Assembly (NCBI GenBank): GCA_032718475.1
Contig: JAUCBJ010002960.1
Location: forward strand, 1 to 36,556
From: Nemertoderma westbladi
Lineage: Eukaryota; Animalia; Xenacoelomorpha
Length of the DNA stretch: 36,556 nucleotides
Reading direction: 5' to 3'
Position 1 is the first letter of the stretch; each line of letters begins with the position of its first letter. This document shows positions 2,479-35,408 of the stretch, in pieces. The translations under genes were made by a program, and so were the position numbers. The notes beneath the pieces are model-generated. The model was not told the DNA's origin and made no database searches. It saw only the letters and a list, made by a program, of their open reading frames with translations.

Positions 2479-2745
2479 ACGCGCATCCCTCCCACGTGTG
2501 GCCGATTGGTAGCATTTTCCGCGGGTGATTCAAATCTCCATGGAGTCGAATCCATTAACAATGGATCGCGCTATTCGATAGCGCTGTGGTTTACAACAAA
2601 CTCGTCACAGAGCTACAAGAAACCATCGGCCCTCAGAGAGTTACAGAAGGAATGGAGTGGGGAACATCAAACCATCGGCCAGGAGAGAGTTACTGAAGGA
2701 ATGGAGTGGGGAACATCAAACCATCGGCCCAAAGGGAGTTACTGA
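2479..2745 (+). CDS. Prolyl 3-hydroxylase family, probable terminal coding exon; last ~41 codons lie in the satellite
   Basis: tcttacag acceptor at 2477-2478, phase 0 matching the upstream donor. Translates TRIPPTCGRLVAFSAGDSNLHGVESINNGSRYSIALWFT (distal His iron ligand and 2OG-binding Arg; P3H-like CGR..FS.G..N.HGV...G.R...ALWFT). Stop TGA at 2743-2745 lies inside the repeat. Confidence 0.82.
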   Translation, partial: TRIPPTCGRLVAFSAGDSNLHGVESINNGSRYSIALWFTTNSSQSYKKPSALRELQKEWSGEHQTIGQERVTEGMEWGTSNHRPKGSY

Positions 2746-5700: not shown

Positions 5701-8700
5701 ATCAAATCATCGGCATTGAGAGAGTTACTAAAGGGGTGGAGTGGGGAACATCAAACCATCGGCCTTGAGAGAGTTACTGAAGGAATGGAGTGGGGAATAT
5801 CAATTCATCGGCATTGAGAGAGTTACTATTAAAGGGATGGAGTGGGGAACATCAAACCATCGGCCCTAAGGGAGTTACTGAAGGGATGGAGTGGGGAACA
5901 TCAAATCATCGGCATTGAGAGAGTTACTAAAGGGATGGAGTGGGGAACATCAAACCATCGGCATTGAGAGAGTTATTGAAGGAATGGAGTGGGGAACATC
6001 AAATCATCGGCATTCAGAGAGTTACTAAAGGGATGGAGTGGGGAACATCAAACCATCGGCCCTAAGGGAGTTACTGAAGGAATGGAGTGGGGAACATCAA
6101 ACCATCGGCCCTAAGGGAGTTTCTGAAGGGATGGAGTGGGGAACATCAAATCATCGGCATTGAGAGAGTTACTAAAGGGATGGAGTGGGGAACATCAAAC
6201 CATCGGCCCTAAGGGAGTTACTGAAGGGATGGAGTGGGGAACATCAAACCATCGGCATTGAGAGAGTTATTGAAGGAATGGAGTGGGGAACATCAAATAA
6301 TCGGCATTCAGAGAGTTACTAAAGGGATGGAGTGGGGAACATCAAACCATCGGCCCTAAGGGAGTTACTGAAGGAATGGAGTGGGGAACATCAAATCATC
6401 GGCATTCAGAGAGTTACTAAAGGGATGGAGTGGGGAACATCAAACCATCGGCATTGAGAGAGTTATTGAAGGAATGGAGTGGGGAACATCAAATCATCGG
6501 CATTCAGAGAGTTACTAAAGGGATGGAGTGGGGAACATCAAACCATCGGCATTGAGAGAGTTATTGAAGGAATGGAGTGGGGAACATCAAATCATCGGCA
6601 TTCAGAGAGTTACTAAAGGGATGGAGTGGGGAACATCAAACCATCGGCCCTAAGGGAGTTACTGAAGGAATGGAGTGGGGAACATCAAACAAACCATCGG
6701 CATTGAGAGAGTTACTATTAAAGGGATGGAGTGGGGAACATCAAACCATCGGCCCTAAGGGAGTTACTGAAGGGATGGAGTGGGGAACATCAAATCATCG
6801 GCATTGAGAGAGTTACTAAAGGGATGGAGTGGGGAACATCAAACCATCGGCATTCAGAGAGTTACTAAAGGGGTGGAGTGGGGAACATCAAACCATCGGC
6901 ATTGAGAGAGTTATTGAAGGAATGGAGTGGGGAATATCAATTCATCGGCATTGAGAGAGTTACTATTAAAGGGATGGAGTGGGGAACATCAAACCATCGG
7001 CCCTAAGGGAGTTACTGAAGGGATGGAGTGGGGAACATCAAATCATCGGCATTGAGAGAGTTACTAAAGGGATGGAGTGGGGAACATCCAACCATCGGCA
7101 TTCAGAGAGTTACTAAAGGAATGGAGTGGGGAACATCAAACCATCGGCATTGAGAGAGTTATTGAAGGAATGGAGTGGGGAACATCAAATCATCGGCATT
7201 CAGAGAGTTACTAAAGGGATGGAGTGGGGAACATCAAACCATCGGCCCTAAGGGAGTTACTGAAGGAATGGAGTGGGGAACATCAAATCATCGGCATTGA
7301 GAGAGTTACTAAAGGGATGGAGTGGGGAACATCAAATCATCGGCCCTAAGGGAGTTACTAAAGGGATGGAGTGGGGAACATCAAACCATCGGCCCTAAGG
7401 GAGTTACTGAAGGGATGGAGTGGGGAACATCAAATCATCGCCATTGAGAGAGTTACTAAAGGGATGGAGTGGGGAACATCAAATCATCGGCCCTAAGGGA
7501 GTTACTAAAGGGATGGAGTGGGAACATCAAACCATCGGCCCTGAGAGAGTTACTGAAGGAATGGAGTGGGGAACATCAAATCATCGGCATTGAGAGAGTT
7601 ACTAAAGGGATGGAGTGGGGAACATCAAACCATCGGCCCTAAGGGAGTTACTAAAGGGATGGAGTGGGGAACATCAAACCATCGGCCCTAAGGGAGTTAC
7701 TGAAGGGATGGAGTGGGGAACATCAAACCATCGGCATTGAGAGAGTTATTGAAGGAATGGAGTGGGGAACATCAAATCATCGGCATTCAGAGAGTTACTA
7801 AAGGGATGGAGTGGGGAACATCAAACCATCGGCCCTAAGGGAGTTACTAAAGGGATGGAGTGGGGAACATCAAACCATCGGCATTGAGAGAGTTATTGAA
7901 GGAATGGAGTGGGGAACATCAAATCATCGGCATTCAGAGAGTTACTAAAGGGATGGAGTGGGGAACATCAAACCATCGGCCCTAAGGGAGTTACTGAAGG
8001 AATGGAGTGGGGAACATCAAATCATCGGCATTGAGAGAGTTACTAAAGGGATGGAGTGGTGAACATCAAACCATCGGCATTGAGAGAGTTATTGAAGGAT
8101 TGGAGTGGGGAACATCAAATCATCGGCATTCAGAGAGTTACTAAAGGGATGGAATGGGGAACATCAAACCATCGGCCCTAAGGGAGTTACTGAAGGAATG
8201 GAGTGGGGAACATCAAACCATCGGCCCTAAGGGAGTTTCTGAAGGGATGGAGTGGGGAACATCAAACCATCGGCCCTAAGGGAGTTACTGAAGGAATGTA
8301 GTGGGGAACATCAAATCATCGGCATTGAGAGAGTTACTAAAGGGATGGAGTGGGGAACATCAAACCATCGGCATTGAGAGAGTTACTAAAGGGATGGAGT
8401 GGGGAACATCAAATCATCGGCCCTAAGGGAGTTACTAAAGGGATGGAGTGGGGAACATCAAATCATCGGCATTGAGATAGTTACTAAAGGGATGGAGTGG
8501 GGAACATCAAACCATCGGCATTGAGAGAGTTACTAAAGGGATAGAGTGGGGAACATCAAACCATCGGCATTGAGAGAGTTACTAAAGGAATGGAGTGGGG
8601 AACATCAAATCATCGGCCCTAAGGGAGTTACTAAAGGGATGGAGTGGGGAACATCAAACAAACCATCGGCATTGAGAGAGTTACTATTAAAGGGATGGAG

Positions 8701-11700
8701 TGGGGCACATCAAACCATCGGCCCTAAGGGAGTTACTGAAGGGATGGAGTGGGGAACATCAAATCATCGGCATTGAGAGAGTTACTAAAGGGATGGAGTG
8801 GGGAACATCAAACCATCGGCATTCAGAGAGTTACTAAAGGGGTGGAGTGGGGAACATCAAACCATCGGCATTGAGAGAGTTATTGAAGGAATGGAGTGGG
8901 GAATATCAATTCATCGGCATTGAGAGAGTTACTATTAAAGGGATGGAGTGGGGAACATCAAACCATCGGCCCTAAGGGAGTTACTGAAGGGATGGAGTGG
9001 GGAACATCAAATCATCGGCATTGAGAGAGTTACTAAAGGGATGGAGTGGGGAACATCCAACCATCGGCATTCAGAAAGTTACTAAAGGAATGGAGTGGGG
9101 AACATCAAACCATCGGCATTGAGAGAGTTATTGAAGGAATGGAGTGGGGAACATCAAATCATCGGCATTCAGAGAGTTACTAAAGGGATGGAGTGGGGAA
9201 CATCAAACCATCGGCCCTAAGGGAGTTACTGAAGGAATGGAGTGGGGAACATCAAATCATCGGCATTGAGAGAGTTACTAAAGGGATGGAGTGGGGAACA
9301 TCAAATCATCGGCCCTAAGGGAGTTACTAAAGGGATGGAGTGGGGAACATCAAACCATCGGCCCTAAGGGAGTTACTGAAGGGATGGAGTGGGGAACATC
9401 AAATCATCGGCATTGAGAGAGTTACTAAAGGGATGGAGTGGGGAACATCAAATCATCGGCCCTAAGGGAGTTACTAAAGGGATGGAGTGGGAACATCAAA
9501 CCATCGGCCCTGAGAGAGTTACTGAAGGAATGGAGTGGGGAACATCAAATCATCGGCATTGAGAGAGTTACTAAAGGGATGGAGTGGGGAACATCAAACC
9601 ATCGGCCCTAAGGGAGTTACTAAAGGGATGGAGTGGGGAACATCAAACCATCGGCCCTAAGGGAGTTACTGAAGGGATGGAGTGGGGAACATCAAACCAT
9701 CGGCATTGAGAGAGTTATTGAAGGAATGGAGTGGGGAACATCAAATCATCGGCATTCAGAGAGTTACTAAAGGGATGGAGTGGGGAACATCAAACCATCG
9801 GCCCTAAGGGAGTTACTAAAGGGATGGAGTGGGGAACATCAAACCATCGGCATTGAGAGAGTTATTGAAGGAATGGAGTGGGGAACATCAAATCATCGGC
9901 ATTCAGAGAGTTACTAAAGGGATGGAGTGGGGAACATCAAACCATCGGCCCAAAGGGAGTTACTGAAGGAATGGAGTGGGGAACATCAAACCATCGGCCC
10001 TAAGGGAGTTACTGAAGGAATGGAGTGGGGAACATCAAACCATCGGTCATGAGAGTTACTGAAGGAATGGAGTGGGGAACATCAAACCATCGGCCCTGAG
10101 AGAGTTACTGAAGGAATGGAGTGGGGAACATCAAACCATCGGCCCTGAGAGAGTTACTGAAGGAATGGAGTGGAGAACATCAAACCATCGGCCCTGAGAG
10201 AGTTACTGAAGGAATGGAGTGGGGAACATCAAACCAACGGCCCTGAGAGAGTTACTGAAGGAATGGAGTGGGGAACATCAAACCATCGGCCCTAAGGGAG
10301 TTACTGAAAGACTGGAGTGGGGAACATCAAACCATCGGCCCTGAGAGAGTTACTGAAGGAATGGAGTGGGGAACATCAAATCATCGGCATTGAGAGAGTT
10401 ACTAAAGGAATGGAGTGGGGAACATCAAACCATCGGCATTGAGAGAGTTACTGGAGGAATGGAGTGGGGAACATCAAACCATCGACCCTGAGGGAGTTAC
10501 TGAAGGAATGGAGTGGGAAACAGCAAACCATCGGCCCTGAGAGAGTTACTGAAGGAATGGAGTGGGGAACATCAAATCATCGGCATTGAGAGAGTTACTA
10601 AAGGAATGGAGTGGGGAACATCAAACCATCGGCATTGAGAGAGTTACTGGAGGAATGGAGTGGGGAACATCAAACCATCGACCCTGAGGGAGTTACTGAA
10701 GGAATGGAGTGGGAAACAGCAAACCATCGGCCCTGAGAGAGTTACTGAAGGAATGGAGTGGGGAACATCAAATCATCGGCATTGAGAGAGTTACTAAAGG
10801 AATGGAGTGGGGAACATCAAACCATCGGCATTGAGAGAGTTACTGGAGGAATGGAGTGGGGAACATCAAACCATCGACCCTGAGGGAGTTACTGAAGGAA
10901 TGGAGTGGGAAACAGCAAACCATCGGCCCTGAGGTAGTTACTGAAGGAATGGAGTGGGGAACATCAAACCATCGCCCCTAAGGGAGTTACTAAAGGGATG
11001 GAGTGGGGAACATCAAACCATCGGCCCTGAGAGAGTTACTGAAGGAATGGAGTGGGGAACATCAAACCATCGGCCCTGAGGTAGTTACTGAAGGAATGGA
11101 GTGGGGAACATCAAACCATCGCCCCTAAGGGAGTTACTAAAGGGATGGAGTGGGGAACATCAAACCATCGGCCCTGAGAGAGTTACTAAAGGGATGGAGT
11201 GGGGAACATCAAATCATCGGCAGTAAGGGAGTTACTGAAGGAATGGAATGGGGAACATCAAACCATCGGCACTAAGGGAGTTACTGAAAGAATGGAATGG
11301 GGAACATCAAACCATTGACCCTAAATGGAGTTACTGAAGGAATGGAGTGGGGAACATCAAACCATCGGCCCTAAGGGAGTTACTGGAGGAATGGAGTGGG
11401 GAACATCAAACCATCGGCCTTGAGAGAGTTACTGGGGGAATAGAGTGGGAAACATCAAACCATCGGCCCTAAGGGAGTTACTGAAGGAATGGAGTCGGGA
11501 ACATCAAACCATCGGCCCTAAGGGAGTTACTGAAGGAATGGAGTGGGGAACATCAAATCATCGGCATTGAGAGAGTTACTAAAGGGATGGAGTGGGGAAC
11601 ATCAAACCATCGGCATTTAGAGAGTTACTAAAGGGATAGAGTGGGGAACATCAAACCATCGGCATTTAGAGAGTTACTAAAGGGATAGAGTGGGGAACAT

Positions 11701-14700
11701 CAAACCATCGGCCCTAAGGGAGTTACTGAAGGGATGGAGTGGGGAACATCAAACCATCGGCATTTAGAGAGTTACTAAAGGGATAGAGTGGGGAACATCA
11801 AACCATCGGCCTTGAGAGAGTTACTGAAGGAATGGAGTGGGGAACATCAAATCATCGGCATTGAAAGAGTTACTAAAGGGATGGAGTGGGGAACATCAAA
11901 CCATCGGCCTTGAGAGTGTTACTGAAGGAATGGAGTGGGGAACATCAAATCATCGGCATTGAGAGAGTTACTAAAGGGATAGAGTGGGGAACATCAAACC
12001 ATCGGCCTTGAGAGAGTTACTGAAGGAATGGAGTGGGGAATATCAATTCATCGGCATTGAGAGAGTTACTAAAGGGATGGAGTGGGGAACATCAAACCAT
12101 CGGCCTTGAGAGAGTTACTGAAGGAATGGAGTGGGGAACATCAAATCATCGGCATTGAAAGAGTTACTAAAGGGATGGAGTGGGGAACATCAAACCATCG
12201 GCCTTGAGAGTGTTACTGAAGGAATGGAGTGGGGAACATCAAATCATCGGCATTGAGAGAGTTACTAAAGGGATAGAGTGGGGAACATCAAACCATCGGC
12301 CTTGAGAGAGTTACTGAAGGAATGGAGTGGGGAATATCAATTCATCGGCATTGAGAGAGTTACTAAAGGGATGGAGTGGGGAACATCAAACCATCGGCCT
12401 TGAGAGAGTTATTGAAGGAATGGAGTGGGGAACATCAAACCATCGGCCTTGAGAGTGTTACTGAAGGAATGGAGTGGGGAACATCAAATCATCGGCATTG
12501 AGAGAGTTACTAAAGGAATGGAGTGGGGAACATCAAACCATCGGCCCTAAGGGAGATACTGAAGGAATGGAGTGGGGAACATCAAACATCGGCCTTGAGA
12601 GAGTTACTAAAGGGATGGAGTGGGGAACATCAAACCATCGGCCCTAAGGGAGATACTGAAGGAATGGAGTGTGGAACATCAAACCATCGGCCCTAAGGGA
12701 GTTACTGAAGGAATGGAGTGGGGAACATCAAACCATCGGCATTTAGAGAGTTACTAAAGGGATATAGTGGGGAACATCAAACCATCGGCATTTAGAGAGT
12801 TACTAAAGGGATAGAGTGGGGAACATCAAACCATCGGCCTTGAGAGAGTTACTGAAGGAATGGAGTGGGGAACATCAAATCATCGGCATTGAAAGAGTTA
12901 CTAAAGGGATGGAGTGGGGAACATCAAACCATCGGCCTTGAGAGTGTTACTGAAGGAATGGAGTGGGGAACATCAAATCATCGGCATTGAGAGAGTTACT
13001 AAAGGGATAGAGTGGGGAACATCAAACCATCGGCCTTGAGAGAGTTACTGAAGGAATGGAGTGGGGAACATCAAATCATCGGCATTGAGAGAGTTACTAA
13101 AGGGGTGGAGTGGGGAACATCAAACCATCGGCCTTGAGAGAGTTACTGAAGGAATGGAGTGGGGAATATCAATTCATCGGCATTGAGAGAGTTACTATTA
13201 AAGGGATGGAGTGGGGAACATCAAACCATCGGCCCTAAGGGAGTTACTGAAGGGATGGAGTGGGGAACATCAAATCATCGGCATTGAGAGAGTTACTAAA
13301 GGGATGGAGTGGGGAACATCAAACCATCGGCATTGAGAGAGTTATTGAAGGAATGGAGTGGGGAACATCAAATCATCGGCATTCAGAGAGTTACTAAAGG
13401 GATGGAGTGGGGAACATCAAACCATCGGCCCTAAGGGAGTTACTGAAGGAATGGAGTGGGGAACATCAAACCATCGGCCCTAAGGGAGTTTCTGAAGGGA
13501 TGGAGTGGGGAACATCAAATCATCGGCATTGAGAGAGTTACTAAAGGGATGGAGTGGGGAACATCAAACCATCGGCCCTAAGGGAGTTACTGAAGGGATG
13601 GAGTGGGGAACATCAAACCATCGGCATTGAGAGAGTTATTGAAGGAATGGAGTGGGGAACATCAAATAATCGGCATTCAGAGAGTTACTAAAGGGATGGA
13701 GTGGGGAACATCAAACCATCGGCCCTAAGGGAGTTACTGAAGGAATGGAGTGGGGAACATCAAATCATCGGCATTCAGAGAGTTACTAAAGGGATGGAGT
13801 GGGGAACATCAAACCATCGGCATTGAGAGAGTTATTGAAGGAATGGAGTGGGGAACATCAAATCATCGGCATTCAGAGAGTTACTAAAGGGATGGAGTGG
13901 GGAACATCAAACCATCGGCATTGAGAGAGTTATTGAAGGAATGGAGTGGGGAACATCAAATCATCGGCATTCAGAGAGTTACTAAAGGGATGGAGTGGGG
14001 AACATCAAACCATCGGCCCTAAGGGAGTTACTGAAGGAATGGAGTGGGGAACATCAAACAAACCATCGGCATTGAGAGAGTTACTATTAAAGGGATGGAG
14101 TGGGGAACATCAAACCATCGGCCCTAAGGGAGTTACTGAAGGGATGGAGTGGGGAACATCAAATCATCGGCATTGAGAGAGTTACTAAAGGGATGGAGTG
14201 GGGAACATCAAACCATCGGCATTCAGAGAGTTACTAAAGGGGTGGAGTGGGGAACATCAAACCATCGGCATTGAGAGAGTTATTGAAGGAATGGAGTGGG
14301 GAATATCAATTCATCGGCATTGAGAGAGTTACTATTAAAGGGATGGAGTGGGGAACATCAAACCATCGGCCCTAAGGGAGTTACTGAAGGGATGGAGTGG
14401 GGAACATCAAATCATCGGCATTGAGAGAGTTACTAAAGGGATGGAGTGGGGAACATCCAACCATCGGCATTCAGAGAGTTACTAAAGGAATGGAGTGGGG
14501 AACATCAAACCATCGGCATTGAGAGAGTTATTGAAGGAATGGAGTGGGGAACATCAAATCATCGGCATTCAGAGAGTTACTAAAGGGATGGAGTGGGGAA
14601 CATCAAACCATCGGCCCTAAGGGAGTTACTGAAGGAATGGAGTGGGGAACATCAAATCATCGGCATTGAGAGAGTTACTAAAGGGATGGAGTGGGGAACA

Positions 14701-17700
14701 TCAAATCATCGGCCCTAAGGGAGTTACTAAAGGGATGGAGTGGGGAACATCAAACCATCGGCCCTAAGGGAGTTACTGAAGGGATGGAGTGGGGAACATC
14801 AAATCATCGCCATTGAGAGAGTTACTAAAGGGATGGAGTGGGGAACATCAAATCATCGGCCCTAAGGGAGTTACTAAAGGGATGGAGTGGGAACATCAAA
14901 CCATCGGCCCTGAGAGAGTTACTGAAGGAATGGAGTGGGGAACATCAAATCATCGGCATTGAGAGAGTTACTAAAGGGATGGAGTGGGGAACATCAAACC
15001 ATCGGCCCTAAGGGAGTTACTAAAGGGATGGAGTGGGGAACATCAAACCATCGGCCCTAAGGGAGTTACTGAAGGGATGGAGTGGGGAACATCAAACCAT
15101 CGGCATTGAGAGAGTTATTGAAGGAATGGAGTGGGGAACATCAAATCATCGGCATTCAGAGAGTTACTAAAGGGATGGAGTGGGGAACATCAAACCATCG
15201 GCCCTAAGGGAGTTACTAAAGGGATGGAGTGGGGAACATCAAACCATCGGCATTGAGAGAGTTATTGAAGGAATGGAGTGGGGAACATCAAATCATCGGC
15301 ATTCAGAGAGTTACTAAAGGGATGGAGTGGGGAACATCAAACCATCGGCCCTAAGGGAGTTACTGAAGGAATGGAGTGGGGAACATCAAATCATCGGCAT
15401 TGAGAGAGTTACTAAAGGGATGGAGTGGTGAACATCAAACCATCGGCATTGAGAGAGTTATTGAAGGATTGGAGTGGGGAACATCAAATCATCGGCATTC
15501 AGAGAGTTACTAAAGGGATGGAATGGGGAACATCAAACCATCGGCCCTAAGGGAGTTACTGAAGGAATGGAGTGGGGAACATCAAACCATCGGCCCTAAG
15601 GGAGTTTCTGAAGGGATGGAGTGGGGAACATCAAACCATCGGCCCTAAGGGAGTTACTGAAGGAATGTAGTGGGGAACATCAAATCATCGGCATTGAGAG
15701 AGTTACTAAAGGGATGGAGTGGGGAACATCAAACCATCGGCATTGAGAGAGTTACTAAAGGGATGGAGTGGGGAACATCAAATCATCGGCCCTAAGGGAG
15801 TTACTAAAGGGATGGAGTGGGGAACATCAAATCATCGGCATTGAGATAGTTACTAAAGGGATGGAGTGGGGAACATCAAACCATCGGCATTGAGAGAGTT
15901 ACTAAAGGGATAGAGTGGGGAACATCAAACCATCGGCATTGAGAGAGTTACTAAAGGAATGGAGTGGGGAACATCAAATCATCGGCCCTAAGGGAGTTAC
16001 TAAAGGGATGGAGTGGGGAACATCAAACAAACCATCGGCATTGAGAGAGTTACTATTAAAGGGATGGAGTGGGGCACATCAAACCATCGGCCCTAAGGGA
16101 GTTACTGAAGGGATGGAGTGGGGAACATCAAATCATCGGCATTGAGAGAGTTACTAAAGGGATGGAGTGGGGAACATCAAACCATCGGCATTCAGAGAGT
16201 TACTAAAGGGGTGGAGTGGGGAACATCAAACCATCGGCATTGAGAGAGTTATTGAAGGAATGGAGTGGGGAATATCAATTCATCGGCATTGAGAGAGTTA
16301 CTATTAAAGGGATGGAGTGGGGAACATCAAACCATCGGCCCTAAGGGAGTTACTGAAGGGATGGAGTGGGGAACATCAAATCATCGGCATTGAGAGAGTT
16401 ACTAAAGGGATGGAGTGGGGAACATCCAACCATCGGCATTCAGAAAGTTACTAAAGGAATGGAGTGGGGAACATCAAACCATCGGCATTGAGAGAGTTAT
16501 TGAAGGAATGGAGTGGGGAACATCAAATCATCGGCATTCAGAGAGTTACTAAAGGGATGGAGTGGGGAACATCAAACCATCGGCCCTAAGGGAGTTACTG
16601 AAGGAATGGAGTGGGGAACATCAAATCATCGGCATTGAGAGAGTTACTAAAGGGATGGAGTGGGGAACATCAAATCATCGGCCCTAAGGGAGTTACTAAA
16701 GGGATGGAGTGGGGAACATCAAACCATCGGCCCTAAGGGAGTTACTGAAGGGATGGAGTGGGGAACATCAAATCATCGGCATTGAGAGAGTTACTAAAGG
16801 GATGGAGTGGGGAACATCAAATCATCGGCCCTAAGGGAGTTACTAAAGGGATGGAGTGGGAACATCAAACCATCGGCCCTGAGAGAGTTACTGAAGGAAT
16901 GGAGTGGGGAACATCAAATCATCGGCATTGAGAGAGTTACTAAAGGGATGGAGTGGGGAACATCAAACCATCGGCCCTAAGGGAGTTACTAAAGGGATGG
17001 AGTAGGGAACATCAAACCATCGGCCCTAAGGGAGTTACTGAAGGGATGGAGTGGGGAACATCAAACCATCGGCATTGAGAGAGTTATTGAAGGAATGGAG
17101 TGGGGAACATCAAATCATCGGCATTCAGAGAGTTACTAAAGGGATGGAGTGGGGAACATCAAACCATCGGCCCTAAGGGAGTTACTAAAGGGATGGAGTG
17201 GGGAACATCAAACCATCGGCATTGAGAGAGTTATTGAAGGAATGGAGTGGGGAACATCAAATCATCGGCATTCAGAGAGTTACTAAAGGGATGGAGTGGG
17301 GAACATCAAACCATCGGCCCTAAGGGAGTTACTGAAGGAATGGAGTGGGGAACATCAAATCATCGGCATTGAGAGAGTTACTAAAGGGATGGAGTGGTGA
17401 ACATCAAACCATCGGCATTGAGAGAGTTATTGAAGGATTGGAGTGGGGAACATCAAATCATCGGCATTCAGAGAGTTACTAAAGGGATGGAGTGGGGAAC
17501 ATCAAACCATCGGCCCTAAGGGAGTTACTGAAGGAATGGAGTGGGGAACATCAAACCATCGGCCCTAAGGGAGTTTCTGAAGGGATGGAGTGGGGAACAT
17601 CAAACCATCGGCCCTAAGGGAGTTACTGAAGGAATGTAGTGGGGAACATCAAATCATCGGCATTGAGAGAGTTACTAAAGGGATGGAGTGGGGAACATTA

Positions 17701-18398
17701 AACCATCGGCATTGAGAGAGTTACTAAAGGGATGGAGTGGGGAACATCAAATCATCGGCCCTAAGGGAGTTACTAAAGGGATGGAGTGGGGAACATCAAA
17801 TCATCGGCATTGAGAGAGTTACTAAAGGGATGGAGTGGGGAACATCAAACCATCGGCATTGAGAGAGTTACTAAAGGGATAGAGTGGGGAACATCAAACC
17901 ATCGGCATTGAGAGAGTTACTAAAGGGATAGAGTGGGGAACATCAAACCATCGGCCAGGAGAGAGTTACTGAAGGAATGGAGTGGGGAACATCAAACCAT
18001 CGGCCAGGAGAGAGTTACTGAAGGAATGGAGTGGGGAACATCAAACCATCGGCCCTAAGGGAGTTACTGAAGGAGTGAAGTGGGGAACATCAAATCATCG
18101 GCATCGAGAGAGTTACTAAAGGGATGGAGTGGGGAACATCAAACCATCGGCCCTGAGAGAGTTACTGAAGGAATGGAGTGGGGAACATCAAATCATCGGC
18201 CCTAAGGGAGTTACTAAAGGGATGGAGTGGGGAACATCAAACCATCGGCTTTGAGAGAGTTACTGAAGGAATGGAGTGGGGAACATCAAACCATCGGCCC
18301 TACGGAGTTACTGAAGGGATGGAGTGGGGAACATCAAATCATCGGCATCGAGAGAGTTACTAAAGGGATGGAGTGGGGAACATCAAATCATCGGCATT
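2620..18398. repeat. 49-bp satellite, ~320 copies, with higher-order structure
   Basis: Unit AAA(C/T)CATCGGC(C/A)(C/T)T(G/A)AG(A/G)GAGTTACT(G/A)AAGG(A/G)ATGGAGTGGGGAACATC. Rare variants recur at offsets of 7369 bp (e.g. TGGAGTCGGG at 4121 and 11490) and 1969 bp. Confidence 0.98.
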
Positions 18399-20316: not shown

Positions 20317-21451
20317 ACCTGGTACTCTCCCTCCAGTTGCGCTGCCCCTGTGCTCTGTAGACGCCTTACCTGGTACTCTCCCTACAGTTGCGCTGCTCCT
20401 ATGCTCTGTAGACGACTTACCTGGTACTCTCCCTACAGTTGCGCTGCTCCTGTGCTCTGTAGACGACTTACCTGGTACTCTCCCTACAGTTGCGCTGCTC
20501 CTGTGCTCTGTAGACGACTTACCTGGTACTCTCCTACAGTTGCGCTGCTCCTGTGCTCTGTAGACGACTTACCTGGTACTCTCCCTACAGTTGCGCTGCC
20601 CCTGTGCTCTGTAGACGACTTACCTGGTACTCTCCCTACAGTTGCGCTGCTCCTGTGCTCTGTAGACGACTTACCTGGTACTCTCCTACAGTTGCGCTGC
20701 TCCTGTGCTCTGTAGACGACTTACCTGGTACTCTCCCTACAGTTGCGCTGCTCCTGTGCTCTGTAGACGACTTACCTGGTACTCTCCCTACAGTTGCGCT
20801 GCCCCTGTGCTCTGTAGACGACTTACCTGGTACTCTCCCTACAGTTGCGCTGCTCCTGTGCTCTGTAGACGACTTACCTGGTACTCACCCTACAGTTGCG
20901 CTGCTCCTGTGCTCTGTAGACGACTTACCTGGTACTCTCCCTACAGTTGCGCTGCCCCTGTGCTCTGTAGACGACTTACCTGGTACTCTCCCTACAGTTG
21001 CGCTGCTCCTATGCTCTGTAGACGACTTACCTGGTACTCTCCCTACAGTTGCGCTGCTCCTGTGCTCTGTAGACGACTTACCTGGTACTCTCCTACAGTT
21101 GCGCTGCCCCTGTGCTCTGTAGACGACTTACCTGGTATTCTCCCTACAGTTGCGCTGCTCCTGTGCTCTGTAGACGACTTACCTGGTACTCTCCTACAGT
21201 TGCGCTGCTCCTGTGCTCTGTAGACGACTTACCTGGTACTCTCCCTACAGTTGCGCTGCCCCTGTGCTCTGTAGACGACTTACCTGGTACTCTCCCTACA
21301 GTTGCGCTGCTCCTGTGCTCTGTAGACGACTTACCTGGTACCGGTACTCTCCCTACAGTTGCGCTGCTCCTGTGCTCTCGCTCTGTAGACGACTTACCTG
21401 GTACTCTCCCTACAGTTGCGCTGCCCCTGTGCTCTGTAGACGACTTACCTG
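20317..21451. repeat. 51-bp intronic tandem repeat, ~22 copies, starting at the RFC3 5' splice site
   Basis: Minus-strand unit GTAAGTCGTCTACAGAGCACAGG(A/G)GCAGCGCAACTGTAGGGAGAGTACCAG; some 50-bp variants. Confidence 0.97.
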
Positions 21452-21835
21452 GAATTCCCTCTGTACCGCCGCTTCCAGCTGTTGCGACTGCGCTAGAGTT
21501 TTGATTAACTCCTGGACGACAACCCGATCGTATATCCCAACGTCGCTCGGGTTCACTTCAATATGGTAGTTACTGGCGAGCGTGTCGATCTCTACCCGTT
21601 TACCGGAAGGCGCCGTGAATGTTTGGTGTTCTAGTCGGAGTTTCTCTACGCCCGGCCCGTATAGCTCTCGGAGGAGACACATTATACGGGTCTTCTTCCC
21701 GGCCCCCGACGGTCCATAAACAAGAAGGTGGGGGAAATCGCCGGTATCCACGAGACGCTTCAATTGTTGGCCGAGTTTCTGGTGGAAATCGAGTTTAGCG
21801 AGGGAAGTTGGTCGGTATTTGTCGACCCACAACAT
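21449..21835 (-). CDS. RFC3: Replication factor C subunit 3, coding exon 1
   Basis: MLWVDKYRP (RFC box II), FPHLLVYGPSGAGKKT (RFC3-type Walker A), ASNYHIEVNPSDVGIYDRVVVQELIK. Ends CAG|gtaagt, phase 0, joining exon 2 in frame. Confidence 0.95.
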
Positions 21836-26766: not shown

Positions 26767-27129
26767 ATGTCCGGGGATATCGACCACATAACCTCGTATG
26801 ACAAATCTCATCCGGGCAATGTTGTAGAGCAGTTACAATCGGTTCCGGAAGTGGCCGTGCGCAGTGGACCCAGTGGGACTGTGACGTCATTCCACAGCGA
26901 GTACCCGCTCAGTTCCGGTAGACTAAGCGACGAAAACTCACCCCTACTGATCGGCGAATACCGCGGTATGTCTGTCTCCGACGTGGACTGCACCACAAAC
27001 TACTTCTCCGATGATATGGACTTTACGGCGGTTATAAGCGAGGCTGATCGAGCAATCGAGAATGGAGTTTATCCAGAGAGAATATATCAAGGGTCCAGTG
27101 GAAGTTACTTTGTTAAAAACTCTGAGGGG
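26767..27129 (+). CDS. PI4K2: Phosphatidylinositol 4-kinase type II, coding exon 1
   Basis: cag|ATG start; contains an acidic dileucine motif ENSPLL and AIENGVYPERIYQGSSGSYFVKN (type II PI4K P-loop); ends GGG|gttagt. An upstream exon cannot be excluded. Confidence 0.88.
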
Positions 27130-27766
27130 GTTAGTTAATGTTGGGTTATCTCTATCTGCCTTAAACCAGTAAACCTCCAGACTAGACCTGTCAATCTTAT
27201 CCCAAAGCCGCCTGCCAGGCAGACAGTCTACAATATTTGTGAAATATTCCTCCAACGGCAGCACGGTCTGCAGTACAGTAAATAATTGAAAAGGTCCGGA
27301 CTTATTTTCCCTCTTTATCAGTTTATAGATATTTGAGTGGCAGAGTGGTGCATATCCGCATCCGGCTGTCCGGCATACCCATCCGAACGGCTGGATATGC
27401 CGGATATTTTTGTTATTATTATCAATAAGATACATATTGACGGTCAAGAGTACGAAATACTACGTGTTTTATAATCCTTTCTTTTAGAAAAAGTAAATCA
27501 ATTATTGAACTACCATACTGCACTCCTAATCCATCACGCTCAATTAACCTGCACCGTACATAACTCATCAGACTTTGTGCATAACCACAGCACAAACGAA
27601 ATGTTTATTTTACTTCTTTACATTGAATTTTATTACGGCATTTTTGTTAACAACGGCGGGGATGCGGGTGGCTGTGGCGTGGCGGCCAGACGGCAACAAA
27701 TAATACCGAATTGAATAATCGACCGAGACCTCAGCCATTTTTTATTCATTGTATCAAAGTTTGTAA

Positions 27767-28036
<270 letters not shown>

Positions 28037-28351
28037 TGACGGTAATACCGAGTGTCTCTAATCAAACATGTACACAATATCTACAGCTACACACACTGTT
28101 GGTACAATATATGAATATGAATATAAATTTAATATTTGTTTTTTTCATTTCTCTCACCCCCTCATCAGTTGTACCGGTGTACCCGTAAAAATATTACTGA
28201 TGCAAGAAAAACAAAATGCGAGACAATAAAAAATATTTTGTGCGGAAACGACCTGACCATAATAAATTATAATACAATATATGGTGGAGTTTCCGCTGTA
28301 AAGATTACTAATTGAATTGTCTTGCATATTAAAGGTAATAAAGGAATCTAA

Positions 28352-28528
<177 letters not shown>

Positions 28529-29046
28529 TAGACATGGGAGGTCATATTCAACTCCAATAACATCCGTAAATTATTATCACGAGAACAATTTTCGTTAGCA
28601 AAACTTTTATAAAATTTCGTCAAGGTTAATTATTGATTAGAGTATTGCGTTTAGAATTATTCTAGAATACATAATTAGGGTGACAATAATATATACGATC
28701 GGATGACTTATTTTATATAACTTTTTAGGAATTTTTATAAAACTTTTAAGAATTTTTAAACCGTGCTTTAGTAAATGCAATTCTAATTTCCAGAATAGAT
28801 TTAAATAATAATTTGCCCTTAGTCTCACTCTTAATAAACTCCTGTGCAAAATGAAACAAGAAGCTACCAACAACAGCTGATATAACCGATACGTTAAAGG
28901 AATTACACTGGCACCCAATAGGATATAGACAAAACAGCTTTATTAACCTGGAAATCTATTAACCATCAGTCCCTTATCTCCCAGACTTATTGGTCCCCAA
29001 CTACAATGTTACCCGAATACATGTGGACTTTCTATTATAATAATGA

Positions 29047-29271
<225 letters not shown>

Positions 29272-29786
29272 TAGCCATATACATTATATCGGCCAAACCA
29301 CTACGACACATCTGCTGCATTTACTTTGCGATAAATACCCAATTCCTTTGCTTTATGAAGGCCGGTACGTCTTTCAGTAGACGACAAGTCACGTCTTTTA
29401 AGAAACCAACAGGGGCTGCATATAGCAGAACAGTCTCTATTATTATAATACCGGCAGACCCAGAAAGAACGCACCTGAAATTATTCTAACCACAACAATA
29501 AACTGGGATCAATAGAACTAGAACAGGTTACAGTTTTAGTTTTGTGAATCCGCTGTTATTTGCTTGGATTTTCCCTGGAGAGGGATGGATTTTGTCTGCG
29601 TCGGAACCCCCCCCCCCCCCCCCCCCCCCCCCATTTATTACGTCACCGTTTGGCGATTATCCCAGCTGTTTGTGTTATTGGTATTAGCAAAATAGGCCAA
29701 TATGAGCGGCATTTTAAGGTTTGTAACAACTTTTGCGTTTCTACATCAGTCGATATAAAAACCATTTTATGATTAATTTCTTCCAG

Positions 29787-29948
29787 ATAGAGGCAATGAT
29801 AATTGGTTAATTAACCTGGAAGACCCTGACATAGACGATACATTGAGCGAACCTGGCTTCGCGTCAGTTAGTCAATCGGAAATCCGGGTTGCTGCGATAG
29901 ATAACGGTCTCGCATTCCCGTTCAAACACCCAGATTCATGGCGAGCTT
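29787..29948 (+). CDS. PI4K2: PI4K type II, coding exon 5
   Basis: ttccag acceptor; (D)RGNDNWLI...[22 protein letters not shown] with the catalytic DRxxxN and IDNG motifs; ends phase 1 T|gtaagt. Confidence 0.95.
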
Positions 29949-32106
29949 GTAAGTACCACAAATAGGGTGAATACGTATAGCTGTGACTGTAACCTGTAAG
30001 TACCACAAATAGGGTGAATACGTATAGCTGTGACTGTAACCTGTAAGTACCACAAATAGGGTGATACGTATAGCTGTGACTGTAACCTGTAAGTACCACA
30101 AATAGGGTGAATACGTATAGCTGTGACTGTAACCTGTAAGTACCACAAATAGGGTGAATACGTATAGCTGTGACTGTAACCTGTAAGTACCACTAATAGG
30201 GTGAATACGTATAGCTGTGACTGTAACCTGTAAGTACCACAAATAGGGTGAATACGTATAGCTGTGACTGTAACCTGTAAGTACCACAAATAGGGTGAAT
30301 ACGTATAGCTGTGACTGTAACCTGTAAGTACCACAAATAGGGTGAATACGTATAGCTGTGACTGTAACCTGTAAGTACCACAAATAGGGTGAATACGTAT
30401 AGCTGTGACTGTAACCTGTAAGTACCACAAATAAGGTGAATACGTATAGCTGTGACTGTAACCTGTAAGTACCACAAATAGGGTGAATACGTATACCTGT
30501 GACTGTAACCTGTAAGTACCACAAATAGGGTGAATACGTATAGCTGTGACTGTAACCTGTAAGTACCACTAATAGGGTGAATACGTATAGCTGTGACTGT
30601 AACCTGTAAGTACCACAAATAGGGTGAATACGTATAGCTGTGACTGTAACCTGTAAGTACCACAAATAGGGTGAATACGTATAGCTGTGACTGTAACCTG
30701 TAAGTACCACAAATAGGGTGAATACGTATAGCTGTGACTGTAACCTGTAAGTACCACAAATAGGGTGAAGACGTATACCTGTGACTGTAACCTGTAAGTA
30801 CCACTAATAGGGTGAATACGTATAGCTGTGACTGTAACCTGTAAGTACCACAAATAGGGTGAATACGTATAGCTGTGACTGTAACCTGTAAGTACCACAA
30901 ATAGGGTGATACGTATAGCTGTGACTGTAACCTGTAAGTACCACAAATAGGGTGAATACGTATAGCTGTGACTGTAACCTGTAAGTACCACAAATAGGGT
31001 GAATACGTATAGCTGTGACTGTAACCTGTAAGTACCACAAATAGGGTGAATACGTATAGCTGTGACTGTAACCTGTAAGTACCACTAATAGGGTGAATAC
31101 GTATAGCTGTGACTGTAACCTGTAAGTACCACAAATATGGTGAATACGTATAGCTGTGACTGTAACCTGTAAGTACCACTAATAGGGTGAATACGTATAG
31201 CTGTGACTGTAACCTGTAAGTACCACAAATAGGGTGAATACATATAGCTGTGACTGTAACCTGTAAGTACCACAAATAGGGTGAATACGTATAGCTGTGA
31301 CTGTAACCTGTAAGTACCACAAATAAGGTGAATACGTATAGCTGTGACTGTAACCTGTAAGTACCACAAATAGGGTGAATACGTATAGCTGTGACTGTAA
31401 CCTGTAAGTACCACAAATAGGGTGAATACGTATAGCTGTGACTGTAACCTGTAAGTACCACAAATATGGTGAATACGTATAGCTGTGACTGTAACCTGTA
31501 AGTACCACAAATAGGGTGAATACGTATAGCTGTGACTGTAACCTGTAAGTACCACAAATAGGGTGAATACGTATAGCTGTGACTAACCTGTAAGTACCAC
31601 AAATAGGGTGAATACGTATAGCTGTTACTGTAACCTGTAAGTACCACAAATAGGGTGAATACGTATAGCTGTGACTGTAACCAGTAAGTACCACAAATAC
31701 GGTGAATACGTATAGCTGTGACTGTAACCAGTAAGTACCACAAATAGGGTGAATACGTATAGCTGTGACTGTAACCTGTAAGTACCACAAATAGGGTGAA
31801 TACGTATAGCTGTTACTGTAACCTGTAAGTACCACAAATATGGTGAATACGTATAGCTGTGACTGTAACCTGTAAGTACCACAAATAGGGTGAATACGTA
31901 TAGCTGCGACTGTAACCTGTAAGTACCACAAATAGGGTGAATACGTATAGCTGTGACTGTAACCTGTAAGTACCACAAATAGGGTGAAGACGTATACCTG
32001 TGACTGTAACCTGTAAGTACCACTAATAGGGTGAATACGTATAGCTGTGACTGTAACCTGTAAGTACCACAAATAGGGTGAATACGTATAGCTGTGACTG
32101 TAACCT
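29949..32106. repeat. 47-bp intronic tandem repeat, ~46 copies, starting at a PI4K2 5' splice site
   Basis: Unit GTAAGTACCACAAATAGGGTGAATACGTATAGCTGTGACTGTAACCT, highly homogeneous. Confidence 0.97.
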
Positions 32107-32913
32107 GTAACCTGTGAACAATCTACATATTTGACTAGACAATTTTGTTATGTCCTTATGTCATATTTTATCGACCCCCACACACCCCATATGTCACATT
32201 TGGCCACCCCCTCCCTTGTGTTACGTCATTAAGGATAGACCCTTATTTGATGCATACTATGCAATTAATTAATTATACTTTATATTTTATTCGAAAATTA
32301 CAAAAAAATGCGATCGAAAATCGTCGCCTAAGTACCGGTACCTACTGTAAAGGCCCTTCTGCATTTTTGTCATTTTACAGGAGAAGCAAAAGAACTGTTA
32401 AAACTGGTAATACTAATAGGATTATCTTACTTTAAATTATTTTTAACGATGAAATATTTGCTCTAGAAATGCAAAGATAATATAAAATAAGTAGTTATTA
32501 TTTTTGATTCCGTAGTTTAATTTTAATTTAATTCCGTTTAATTCCCTTTTTAAACATCAATTTTTTGTTGACGTCGATGGCTCTTTATTTTTGAATCGTA
32601 ATGGAATTTGGGCATCTTTTACTGTACCCAGTATTGGAAAACACTACATAAATGGTATACAATGGATTTAGGGCGTTGTGCAAAATTATGAAAACCAATT
32701 GAGGTGAGGTCTAGGTTAGTTGAGGTAAGGTCTAGGTTGAGGTTAGGAGTGACCCATTTTTAAATGGGTTATACATTTGATTTAAGGCCTTTTACAAAAA
32801 TTTGGGGAACCAATTGGATTTAGGTCTTATAATTTAAACAGCCATAATCTCTAATTTGATTGGTTGAAACTTTTAAAGAATGATTCAATATTAACAAATC
32901 AAATAATGTTGAA

Positions 32914-34203
32914 CTAAATATCAAGAATAACGAATACATCACATCTACCCTGTTTATCATCGTGTACCTGCATTGCGGAGTAAGTTATGGCCTTTACTTC
33001 GGTTCCCTGTGAATGTCTCGATAAGTCCATCGGCTCTCCGAAACAAACAACATCCAGTCCCAATTGGTTTCCATCCCGGTAATCCGTTATTTCGACTCGT
33101 TTAGCTATGAAACATTCGTTCTCCCCACAGATCCCCAGCAACTCGTTTAGGAAGTAGTACAGTAAGTTGAGTTTATCGTTCGCTGTTACTGTGAAATCGA
33201 AAGATCGGACTTCGTCAACCAATCCGATGTCCGTCATGTAACTAAACATCGCGATCGCACTGCGTTCGAACGCCGCCGGAAGGTCTACCCCCCACGCATG
33301 GATCTGTATGTCGGCTGTGTGGTCCAGATAGGCAAACCCTGTAGTCTCGTTACCATGGGTATCGCGAACGCCTTCATCGCTAGACCCTGAGTCTTCTTCG
33401 TGTGAGTCGTAGTAAAGATGGCGACCTTTAGAGTCCGTTGTGGAGAAGTCGGCCAATGGGGAGGCGCGATTGGGGTCCATATGGTCTACCATTGGACTCG
33501 GACTGCGTGGAGGGTAAACATTAGACTGTTCTCTGAGTTCATTGGGACTGTATGATAGGCTGTCTAATTCAGTTACTTTGCAAACATTATTATCAGTTGA
33601 TTGGTCATCACCAGCTGGTTGGTCAGCTGTTTCCGCTAGGCCCCAAACATTATCAGTTGATTGGTCAGCTGTTTCCGCTATACCCCAAACATTATCATTT
33701 GATTGGTAAGCAGTTTCCGCTATACCCCAAACATTATCATTTGATTGGTCAGCTGTTCCCGATGTGCCCCAAACATTATCAGTTGATTGTCCAGCTGTTT
33801 CCGCTATTCCCCAAACATTATCATTTGATTGGTCAGCTGTGCCCCAAACATTATCATTTGATTGGTCAGCTGTTCCCGCTATGCCCCAAACATTATCACT
33901 TGATTGGTCAGCTGTTCCCGCTATGCCCCAAACATTATCACTTGATTGGTCAGCTGTTCCCGCTATGCCCCAAGCATTATCAGTTGATTGGTCAGTTGTT
34001 TCTGCTGCTACCAACATACTTGATTCAGAGTGGCCAATTTGTTCGGGAACATTTCGAGTGTGTTCGCTTGATTGGTCGAAGTAATCTTCTCTATTCCGTG
34101 TATCTCTTGGAGATCTTGATCTCGACCTCTTGTAGAGTGTTCCAATAGAGCCGTTATTCTCGAGTTCCTCTAGAACCGTTGCTGTATCATGCTCTTCCTC
34201 CAT
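32914..34203 (-). CDS. ZBTB8OS: Archease (RtcB tRNA-ligase cofactor) with a ~288-aa acidic, WG-repeat N-terminal extension; intronless, nested in a PI4K2 intron
   Basis: C-terminal ~141 aa read AYLDHTADIQIHAWG...AFERSAIAMFSYMTD...QGTEVKAITYSAMQV...VFVILDI*, carrying the archease DHTAD, EVKAITY and terminal DI signatures. The whole 429-codon frame is uninterrupted. The start codon is less certain than the domain call. Confidence 0.9.
   Translation of the reverse strand: MEEEHDTATVLEELENNGSIGTLYKRSRSRSPRDTRNREDYFDQSSEHTRNVPEQIGHSESSMLVAAETTDQSTDNAWGIAGTADQSSDNVWGIAGTADQSSDNVWGIAGTADQSNDNVWGTADQSNDNVWGIAETAGQSTDNVWGTSGTADQSNDNVWGIAETAYQSNDNVWGIAETADQSTDNVWGLAETADQPAGDDQSTDNNVCKVTELDSLSYSPNELREQSNVYPPRSPSPMVDHMDPNRASPLADFSTTDSKGRHLYYDSHEEDSGSSDEGVRDTHGNETTGFAYLDHTADIQIHAWGVDLPAAFERSAIAMFSYMTDIGLVDEVRSFDFTVTANDKLNLLYYFLNELLGICGENECFIAKRVEITDYRDGNQLGLDVVCFGEPMDLSRHSQGTEVKAITYSAMQVHDDKQGRCDVFVILDI
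33619..34002 (-). repeat. Coding 42-bp (14-aa) tandem repeat, ~9 copies
   Basis: Peptide unit IA(G/E)TADQS(S/N/T)DNVWG; one unit is shortened by 9 bp, keeping frame. Confidence 0.93.
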
Positions 34204-34872
34204 CGTAATAATTTATTATATTATATATATATAATTCCCCGCGGGTGTAAATCTAAACATCAATACACGTGCGGTTACGTTCGTATAATCTAAAATATCT
34301 AGATGCAGTAATGCGTTAAACAATTTAACAAATAAAACAAAACCTGAACACTGACATGAGATGTTGTTAGGTATTAGATGTTGGCTTACACAAACTGTTA
34401 CATAATCTGCATTAAATTATTGGTAAGATTATTCAGATAGGCCTACACGACGTTGGAACTGTGGGCATTAAACCTACAGTTTTAGTACTACAGTAATTCT
34501 CCGACAATTTAATAGTTCTTTACGATTTAATACGACGTGCAGAAGCACAGGAACGGATCGATGGAAATGCTGATTTTCTCCCTACTCAGCTGTAACCAAA
34601 GTTCAGACATCGTGGATCATTTAAATCCATTTTGCACGTAAAAATGACCATTATTAACTTAAATTAATTGTACATCTAATTAAATTGTTATTCCGAAGTA
34701 AAAATTAAGAAAATAACCTATTAGGTATATGTATTTATTGAAACTCAAAACCGGCTGGTTGACCTAGAAGTTGTATGGTTTTGATCTGCCATCCCTCATC
34801 ATATCGTTATCACATAAAGTTATTTTAGTTCGTATTTCAGTTACATTGTTATTAATTTTATGTTTCCCCCAG

Positions 34873-35063
34873 ATCCCTACCATTGGGCATGGCTTTCCTT
34901 CGCCAAAGAACCCTTCCTCGACCAAATTAAAGAAATACTCTCCCCAATGTCAGACATGAACTTCGTAGAGGACCTTGTGCAGGAACTCAAAGATATGTTC
35001 AAACTGGATAAGGATTTCAGTCGTTCTCTGTTCGAGAAACAGATGTCTGTGATGAGGGGGCAG
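34873..35063 (+). CDS. PI4K2: PI4K type II, coding exon 6
   Basis: ttcccccag acceptor; phase 1 completes TAT; (Y)PYHWAWLSFAKEPF...LFEKQMSVMRGQ|gttagt. Confidence 0.95.
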
Positions 35064-35222
35064 GTTAGTTACAACATCAAAACATTCACCTTATGTAAGA
35101 TAACTTAGCAGCAGATAATACAATAATTTTATACAATACTTTAATTATACCGTACCGTTATATATTGTATTATGATATATCCATGGTATAATAATTTAAT
35201 ATATTATAATTTAATATTATAG

Positions 35223-35408
<186 letters not shown>

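What the first reader, a model, noticed from the sequence alone, without database searches (positions are those of the whole stretch)
32914..34203. Archease fused to a WG-repeat (Argonaute-hook-like) disordered extension
Seen: an intact archease domain is preceded in frame by ~288 aa containing an RSRSRSPR motif, nine DN(V/A)WG motifs spaced 14 aa apart (one 11) in D/N/S/T/Q/G/A-rich sequence, then SP-rich and acidic linkers. W and G are invariant while neighbours vary, and the only length change keeps frame, unlike the indel-prone non-coding arrays nearby. Established: archease is normally a small single-domain protein (roughly 140-170 aa) that promotes RtcB guanylylation in tRNA splicing and XBP1 ligation; reiterated WG/GW motifs in such sequence bind Argonautes in GW182, Tas3 and plant NRPE1. 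Inference: a possible adaptor linking RNA ligation or repair to small-RNA complexes or RNA granules. I know of no described archease with this architecture but cannot search. The repeat may instead be a tolerated recent minisatellite.
Basis: partly seen in the sequence, partly recalled or inferred. Interest (0 to 1): 0.82.

Follow-up and report, generated by a model that had tools for sequence, protein, structure and literature searches.

The report
Archease with tryptophan-glycine repeat arm
An animal gene for archease, the helper of the RNA-sealing enzyme RTCB, carries a long front arm predicted to be floppy, with nine tryptophan-glycine repeats that resemble Argonaute-binding hooks, but the repeats show no sign of selection and are likely a tolerated by-product of a repeat-prone genome.

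Summary
One intron-free reading frame (34203-32914, minus strand, 429 aa) joins a 288-aa arm, predicted disordered, to an intact archease domain that keeps the RTCB-activating metal ligands. The gene lies antisense inside a PI4K2 intron. GC steps at start and stop, and open non-repeat flanks (shuffle P 0.0006), make translation of the arm likely. Nine DN(V/A)WG units come from a 42-bp minisatellite. They pass a published WG/GW composition score (40 versus cut-off 7), and none of 329 other archeases has more than two upstream WG/GW. But W/G invariance is not special: 7 of 14 unit positions are invariant, 12 of 15 variants change the amino acid (pN/pS 1.2-1.5; chance that W and G escape 0.15), and both edge copies lack WG. 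The window holds four non-coding 41-51 bp arrays, one of which also encodes WG by chance. Long disordered N-terminal arms are common in eukaryotic archeases. No close orthologue, transcript or binding evidence was obtainable. Verdict: real, apparently undescribed architecture; most likely a tolerated coding minisatellite (0.6); a selected Argonaute adaptor stays possible (0.15). The scan had not noted this gene on other DNA.

The parts
32914..34203 (-). Intron-free ORF, 429 aa: archease with 288-aa N-terminal arm
   Evidence: GC 0.25 to 0.47 at the ATG and 0.43 to 0.22 past the stop
34024..34203 (-). Non-repetitive N-terminal segment aa 1-60, acidic, with a basic RS patch
34105..34128 (-). RSRSRSPR (aa 26-33), basic/RS patch; possible nuclear-import signal (inferred)
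   Evidence: 113 of 126 long archease arms have 4 or more K/R in 9 residues, this one has 5
33580..34023 (-). 42-bp coding minisatellite: nine DN(V/A)WG units (aa 75-203) plus two degenerate edge copies without WG
33340..33582 (-). Ser/Pro-rich then acidic linker, aa 208-288, with Met238 and Met242
32914..33339 (-). Archease domain aa 289-429 with D298, K404, D428 and terminal I429
29949..34872 (+). Host intron of a type II phosphatidylinositol 4-kinase gene, which contains the archease gene antisense and a 47-bp array
   Evidence: flanking exons match consecutive residues 244-292 and 294-356 of PDB 4HND; GT and AG located
29787..29948 (+). PI4K2 exon upstream of the host intron
34873..35063 (+). 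PI4K2 exon downstream of the host intron

Best explanation
This is an archease gene with an intact catalytic domain and a likely translated arm, predicted to be disordered, in which a 42-bp minisatellite expanded to nine tryptophan-glycine copies that are likely tolerated rather than selected. Shown: one open frame, the domain, its fold, its metal ligands, the repeat and its neutral-looking variation. Inferred: the domain activates RTCB as human archease does, by inserting its conserved tip and C-terminal carboxylate into the ligase active site; the arm leaves from the N-terminus, where eukaryotic archeases accept long unrelated additions, so only the reading frame has to be kept. The array arose by the same tandem-duplication process that made four non-coding 41-51 bp arrays in this window; a 42-bp unit survives in coding DNA because it is a multiple of three. 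The WG was in the seed unit by chance. The arm may still bind tryptophan pockets weakly as a side effect; that is untested.
For: Domain: all 17 columns invariant in a 51-protein alignment include the window protein; D298/K404/D428/I429 align with human D51/K156/D178/I179 (roles); model matches 8BTX, E 8e-15, rmsd 1.7. Arm: pLDDT mostly under 50, no secondary structure over aa 1-288. Translation: GC steps; coding score +0.16 and +0.11 bits/codon for aa 1-60 and 208-288, above all 626 and 576 overlapping non-coding windows; joint chance of both being stop-free 0.0006 under shuffling; all 10 AGs behind the array are T-poor (0.10-0.33) against 0.43-0.57 at 8 modelled acceptors. Neutral array: 15 variant alleles, 3 silent and 12 replacement, pN/pS 1.2-1.5; P(W untouched) 0.33, P(W and G unchanged) 0.15; edge copies lack WG. 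Tolerant site: 126 of 329 relatives have 80 or more, 96 have 100 or more residues before the domain; a human fragment 27-167 was the construct made in PMC8668186. Repeat-prone genome: four other arrays in 36 kb; the non-coding 49-bp array encodes 147-155 WG/GW in each plus-strand frame.
Against: The array passes the published WG/GW score (dos 40.0 for aa 71-160, cut-off 6.99), and only 38 of 18,954 14-mers from 233 other archease arms (0.2%) would score 40 if repeated nine times; 108 (0.6%) would contain WG/GW. All nine W of the arm lie in the repeat. Genuine platforms such as NRPE1 also evolve fast by tandem repeats, so neutral-looking variation with only 15 alleles has little power. No other fetched archease arm contains a tandem repeat by a simple 5-mer test. 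No orthologue or transcript could be examined.
Confidence: 0.6

Rival explanations
1. The arm is a selected Argonaute-binding platform: pairs or triplets of its tryptophans would dock in the PIWI-domain pockets and bring archease, and through it RTCB activation, to small-RNA complexes or granules.
For: dos 40.0, P about 7e-5 on the Arabidopsis-fitted distribution; nine WG spaced 11-14 apart, where AGO-binding sites need two W 10 or more residues apart (PMC9262622); architecture like NRPE1's ten 17-aa WG repeats; flanks rich in A/S/E/N/D as described for Tas3, Pol V and a viral P1; a 0.2% event per random repeat; the tRNA ligase complex has roles in transposon RNA handling.
Against: Score is inflated by repetition: units average 3.5 half-bits (range -3.9 to 10.5) against 12.0 for the NRPE1 unit, with disfavoured V and I flanking the WG; no selection signal and no WG in edge copies; no Argonaute-hook family among Pfam hits up to E 10, best is a sub-threshold FG-nucleoporin match; 0 of 329 relatives share the trait; archease meets RTCB only transiently and excludes RNA while bound; the gene was picked from a very large scan, so rare coincidences are expected.
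Confidence: 0.15
2. The tryptophan array is functional but not through Argonaute: it would act as aromatic stickers for condensates or bind other W-pocket proteins (for example CCR4-NOT or PAN3; recalled), and with the RS patch set the protein's location.
For: Regular W spacing in an acidic disordered chain (net charge -25 over aa 61-207); weak FG-nucleoporin similarity, E 0.0018, 19.5 bits against a cut-off of 32.2; tRNA ligase subunits occur in stress granules (reference titles and legend).
Against: Same lack of selection signal; strongly acidic spacers; no homologue of the arm.
Confidence: 0.1
3. The repeat is not in the main protein: translation starts at Met238/Met242, or an intron from the GTATGT at 34019 to an in-phase AG (33564, 33486, 33387 or 33339) removes it, giving an ordinary 190-200 aa archease.
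For: In-phase donor/acceptor pairs exist; the array itself scores only -0.04 bits/codon and is also open on the antisense strand; non-coding arrays here contain open runs of 202 and 539 codons; arrays in this genome often start at splice donors.
Against: GC step falls on the ATG at 34203; aa 1-60 and 208-288 are open and coding-like; candidate acceptors are T-poor and 9 of 10 have an AG just upstream; all length changes are multiples of three whereas most in the non-coding arrays are 1-2 bases.
Confidence: 0.1
4. This is a spare, relaxed retrocopy or paralogue, and an ordinary archease elsewhere in the genome does the essential job (not exclusive of the best explanation).
For: Intron-free and nested antisense in another gene's intron; most divergent domain of 51 (mean identity 47.7% against 60.5 +/- 3.0%; end branch 2.28 against median 0.34 in a quick tree; 12 substitutions and 2 one-residue insertions at well conserved columns), while neighbouring RFC3 is about 64% identical to human (hand count).
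Against: All invariant residues are kept and the frame is intact; RFC3 here has a single intron, so intron loss may be general; no genome is held to look for a parent copy.
Confidence: 0.3

Closest known systems
Human archease (ZBTB8OS name recalled; PDB 8BTX, 8ODO, 8ODP; bioRxiv 10.1101/2023.03.30.534986, passages and sections 7-8 read)
   Same: Fold, about 46% identity, metal ligands and catalytic lysine, terminal Ile.
   Different: 288-aa arm instead of about 40; WG minisatellite; intron-free gene nested in a PI4K2 intron.
Long eukaryotic archeases with disordered N-terminal arms (algae, diatoms, ctenophores, springtails; e.g. P0010, P0011, P0105)
   Same: Long low-complexity arm with a basic patch before the domain.
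   Different: Arms mostly 80-150 aa, non-repetitive, at most two WG/GW; the few longer ones are fusions to other domains or possible gene-model merges.
WG/GW Argonaute-binding platforms: Arabidopsis NRPE1 CTD, SPT5L, WGRP1; GW182/TNRC6; Tas3 (PMC2910046 parts 1-4 of 8 and supplement 3; bioRxiv 10.1101/111831 passages; PMC9262622 passages)
   Same: About ten tandem WG units in a disordered, D/N/S/G/A-rich chain; spacing over 10; passes the dos cut-off.
   Different: Lower per-residue score (0.24 against 0.70 for the NRPE1 unit), V and I next to WG, no known role of the host protein in silencing, no conservation or binding data.
Exon-edge 'mirage' minisatellites of amphioxus (PMC3087553, passages read)
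   Same: Units of tens of bases, homogenised centre and divergent edge copies; two neighbouring arrays in this window begin at splice donors.
   Different: This array lies inside coding sequence and does not span a demonstrated splice junction.

Membership tests
Archease (PF01951) | Full-length match to the family profile above the curated cut-off | tested here: met
   118.5 bits against 25, profile 1-136 of 136
Archease (PF01951) | Archease fold | tested here: met
   pLDDT about 90 or more over most of aa 291-429; Foldseek 8BTX E 8e-15, TM 0.81 on target
Archease (PF01951) | Metal-site ligands and lysine (human D51, K156, D178, terminal I179) | tested here: met
   D298, K404, D428, I429 by the alignment with a 4-residue offset (my mapping); roles; invariant
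Archease (PF01951) | Stimulates RTCB guanylylation | not testable with these tools
   needs an assay
WG/GW Argonaute-binding platform | Reiterated WG/GW in a disordered region, W 10 or more residues apart | tested here: met
WG/GW Argonaute-binding platform | Composition score dos of 6.99 or more (Karlowski 2010, plant matrix) | tested here: met
   40.0 for aa 71-160 (7 WG); 6.94 for aa 168-206 (2 WG); my re-implementation of Table 1
WG/GW Argonaute-binding platform | Internal composition score ics of 2.14 or less | not tested
   matrix seen but the normalisation is not specified well enough to reproduce
WG/GW Argonaute-binding platform | W kept while the rest diverges, within the array | tested here: inconclusive
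   W and G unchanged in 9 of 9 core units but expected by chance with P 0.15; absent from both edge copies
WG/GW Argonaute-binding platform | WG retained in orthologues | not testable with these tools
   no close orthologue: best identity 54% over the domain, none in metagenome contigs; distant relatives lack it
WG/GW Argonaute-binding platform | Tryptophan-dependent Argonaute binding | not testable with these tools
   needs pull-down or ITC
Mirage (splice-junction) minisatellite | Unit spans a used exon-intron boundary | tested here: inconclusive
   a donor-like GTATGT lies in the upstream edge copy at 34019, but no convincing acceptor follows and the whole stretch is open in frame; no transcript seen

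The most novel reading that the evidence does not exclude
An animal has turned a minisatellite expansion into a multivalent Argonaute hook on archease, tethering the activator of the RTCB ligase to small-RNA complexes or granules, so that RNA ligation is switched on where small RNAs cut or store RNA (for example transposon-derived RNA). This would be the first physical link between the RTCB activation step and Argonaute, and a case of an Ago platform born de novo from a repeat.
Probability: 0.15. Interest if true: 0.8.

Novelty: new variant of a known kind. Interest (0 to 1): 0.36.

Why it matters
If the best reading holds, it is a clear example of how a repeat-prone genome writes a motif-rich disordered arm onto an essential enzyme cofactor, and a warning that WG/GW scores can be passed by a neutral minisatellite. 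If the arm does bind Argonaute, it would connect RNA ligation and repair with small-RNA silencing and show how Ago platforms can arise in one step; that is directly testable with one peptide and its W-to-A variant.

Tried and rejected
Own genome: none held, so copy number, a parent gene, the animal's Argonautes and the number of other coding minisatellites could not be counted. Exact look-up of this protein and RFC3: not in the collection. Homologues of the arm: none of 5,600 candidates reached E 0.01 (lengths 235-751 only); Atlas gave no usable hit for aa 60-215 and only archease clusters at 0.82-0.85 for the whole protein; PDB none for the repeat. The top phmmer hit to the repeat (P0090, an abalone ankyrin protein with an unrelated 14-aa repeat without W) was rejected as period and composition similarity. 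Proteins over 751 aa were not searched with the word index; only the best 150 of 2,578 representative hits were seen. Close relatives in metagenome contigs: 66 pattern matches, none confirmed. Complex prediction of aa 100-140 with a stand-in invertebrate-type Argonaute MID-PIWI lobe from a metagenome contig (L065): no answer, scores 0.02 and 0.01, controls not run; not counted for or against. Rfam: 0 matches in the window. Tree: the careful search did not finish; the quick tree leaves the protein unplaced on a long branch. A folded solenoid for the repeat was considered and not seen in the model. Pfaff et al. 2013 was not held; five of six supplements of PMC2910046 were not read and may bear on how the ics score is computed.

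Full report
Observation. The minus strand holds one ORF from 34203 to 32914, 429 aa, with two in-frame stops just before the ATG. Residues 290-429 match Pfam Archease over the whole profile (E 3e-34). Upstream lie RSRSRSPR (aa 26-33), nine WG dipeptides at spacing 14 (one 11), and Ser/Pro-rich and acidic linkers. At DNA level the WG block is a 42-bp minisatellite of 9.6 copies. The description is accurate, with two corrections given below.

Setting. The window is from an unidentified animal: it carries RFC3 (one intron), the end of a 2-oxoglutarate oxygenase gene and a type II PI4-kinase gene. Two PI4K2 exons match consecutive residues 244-292 and 294-356 of PDB 4HND and bracket an intron at 29949-34872. 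Four non-coding arrays of 41, 49, 51 and 47 bp fill over half of the window; two begin at splice donors (21448 and 29949) and one at the end of a coding exon. Earlier unreviewed notes report many such exon-edge arrays across this genome; the type is described in amphioxus, with homogenised centres and divergent edge copies (PMC3087553, passages).

The domain. In an alignment of the window protein with 50 relatives chosen from the 345 fetched, all 17 invariant columns include it. Human archease binds a third Mn ion through D51, D178 and the terminal carboxylate of I179, with K156 on the phosphate, and its tip enters the RTCB active site transiently (bioRxiv 10.1101/2023.03.30.534986, sections 7-8). 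By the alignment these are D298, D428, I429 and K404 here. The model has the archease fold. The domain is nevertheless the most divergent of the 51 (mean identity 47.7% against 60.5 +/- 3.0%), while RFC3 is about 64% identical to human (hand count, 143 of 222). Intron-free, nested and fast-evolving fits a retrocopy, but no genome is held to test it.

Is the arm translated? Probably. GC rises from 0.25 to 0.47 at the ATG and falls from 0.43 to 0.22 after the stop. A small coding model (895 codons from neighbouring exons) scores aa 1-60 at +0.16 and aa 208-288 at +0.11 bits per codon, above all 626 and 576 overlapping non-coding windows (mean -0.60); held-out exons ranged from -0.16 to +0.52, the score is largely GC-driven, and for aa 1-60 another frame scores as well. 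The two non-repeat segments are both stop-free with probability 0.0006 under base shuffling. Openness of the array alone means little: 2 of its 6 frames are open, and non-coding arrays here have open runs of 202 and 539 codons. A donor-like GTATGT at 34019 is in phase with four downstream AGs, but all 10 AGs behind the array are T-poor (0.10-0.33) compared with 8 acceptors of the homology-based gene models (0.43-0.57). Length changes in the array (-9, +18, +3, and an inferred -6) are all multiples of three, whereas those in the non-coding arrays are mostly 1-2 bases (3 of 28, 4 of 21, 3 of 45 and 10 of 300 unit intervals). No transcript could be examined.

Is the repeat under selection for WG? 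No sign. Among nine units, 29 of 42 bases and 7 of 14 residues (D, N, W, G, T, A, Q) are invariant. Of 15 variant alleles 3 are silent and 12 change the residue, against 3.3-3.8 silent expected; pN/pS is 1.2-1.5. W escapes by chance with P 0.33, W and G with P 0.15, and no stop arises with P 0.40-0.48. The degenerate copies at both edges lack WG.

Does it look like an Argonaute hook? Yes, moderately. With the scoring table of Karlowski et al. 2010 (PMC2910046, parts 1-4 of 8 read), aa 71-160 score 40.0 against a cut-off of 6.99, and aa 168-206 score 6.94. The matrix is plant-derived and the companion ics score was not computed. Per unit the mean is 3.5 against 12.0 for the NRPE1 consensus, because V and I flank the WG. 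Spacing satisfies the rule of two W at least ten apart (PMC9262622, passages). A null from 18,954 14-mers of 233 other archease arms, each repeated nine times, gives WG/GW in 0.6% and a score of 40 in 0.2%; random open DNA units give 1.2% and 0.1%. That is rare per event and is the main point for function. But the non-coding 49-bp array in this same window encodes 147-155 WG/GW in each plus frame, and a genome this rich in minisatellites offers many trials, which I could not count. Pfam lists no Argonaute-hook family for the arm up to E 10.

Relatives. Of 345 proteins fetched, the domain start was located in 329 (16 dropped, one of them not an archease). Of these 126 have 80 or more and 96 have 100 or more residues before the domain, in a sample biased to long proteins; 113 of the 126 carry a basic patch like the RS patch here; 317 have no WG/GW upstream, 9 have one, 3 have two, none more. 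The best domain identity is 54%, so no close orthologue is available, and the arm has no homologue. Paper searches pairing archease with N-terminal extension, Argonaute, tandem repeat and intrinsically disordered (listings and abstract starts, plus passages of PMC8668186 and PMC13247085) showed no description of such a protein; the library lacks most subscription papers.

Mechanism and verdict. Most likely (0.6): a working archease whose N-terminus, free of constraint as in many eukaryotes, absorbed a frame-keeping minisatellite; RTCB activation is inferred from conserved residues, tolerance of the arm from relatives and from neutral variation. Rivals: a selected Argonaute adaptor (0.15), another tryptophan-based localisation role (0.1), an arm that is not made (0.1); a spare retrocopy (0.3) is compatible with any of these. 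It is a member of the archease family; it works like, but is not shown to be, a WG/GW platform. The architecture appears undescribed, so I class it as a new variant of a known kind, interest 0.36, with a cheap decisive test.

Noticed in passing
window 26767-35406 (+): Type II phosphatidylinositol 4-kinase gene of about seven exons; its 4.9-kb intron 29949-34872 hosts the archease gene antisense.
   Followed up: yes
window 29948-32110: 47-bp array of 46 copies starting at the PI4K2 splice donor at 29949 (mirage-like).
   Followed up: partly
window 20317-21452: 51-bp array of 22 copies made of the RFC3 exon 1 end and its donor (21448, minus strand); RFC3 has a single intron.
   Followed up: partly
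window 2620-18398: 16-kb array of a 49-bp unit (321 copies) starting inside the last coding exon of a 2-oxoglutarate oxygenase gene, so that the first copies form the protein's C-terminus before a stop; the unit encodes WG in one frame.
   Followed up: partly
window 607-1790: 41-bp intronic array of 29 copies, not at a splice junction.
   Followed up: no
P0001 (277 aa), P0002/P0003, P0020/P0024, P0059/P0079/P0082: Other archease fusions in the databases: with PF09341, with PF14880 in Adineta, with a DEAD-box helicase in two nematodes, and with ankyrin repeats; some may be merged gene models.
   Followed up: no
P0009-P0089, N-terminal arms: Many algal and protist archease arms share a short motif of Leu-Pro-Gln-Arg followed by a basic run, a possible conserved import or RTCB-contact signal not found in the window protein.
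   Followed up: no
window 33552-34148 (+): A 198-aa antisense ORF over the repeat, a by-product of the 42-bp period.
   Followed up: yes
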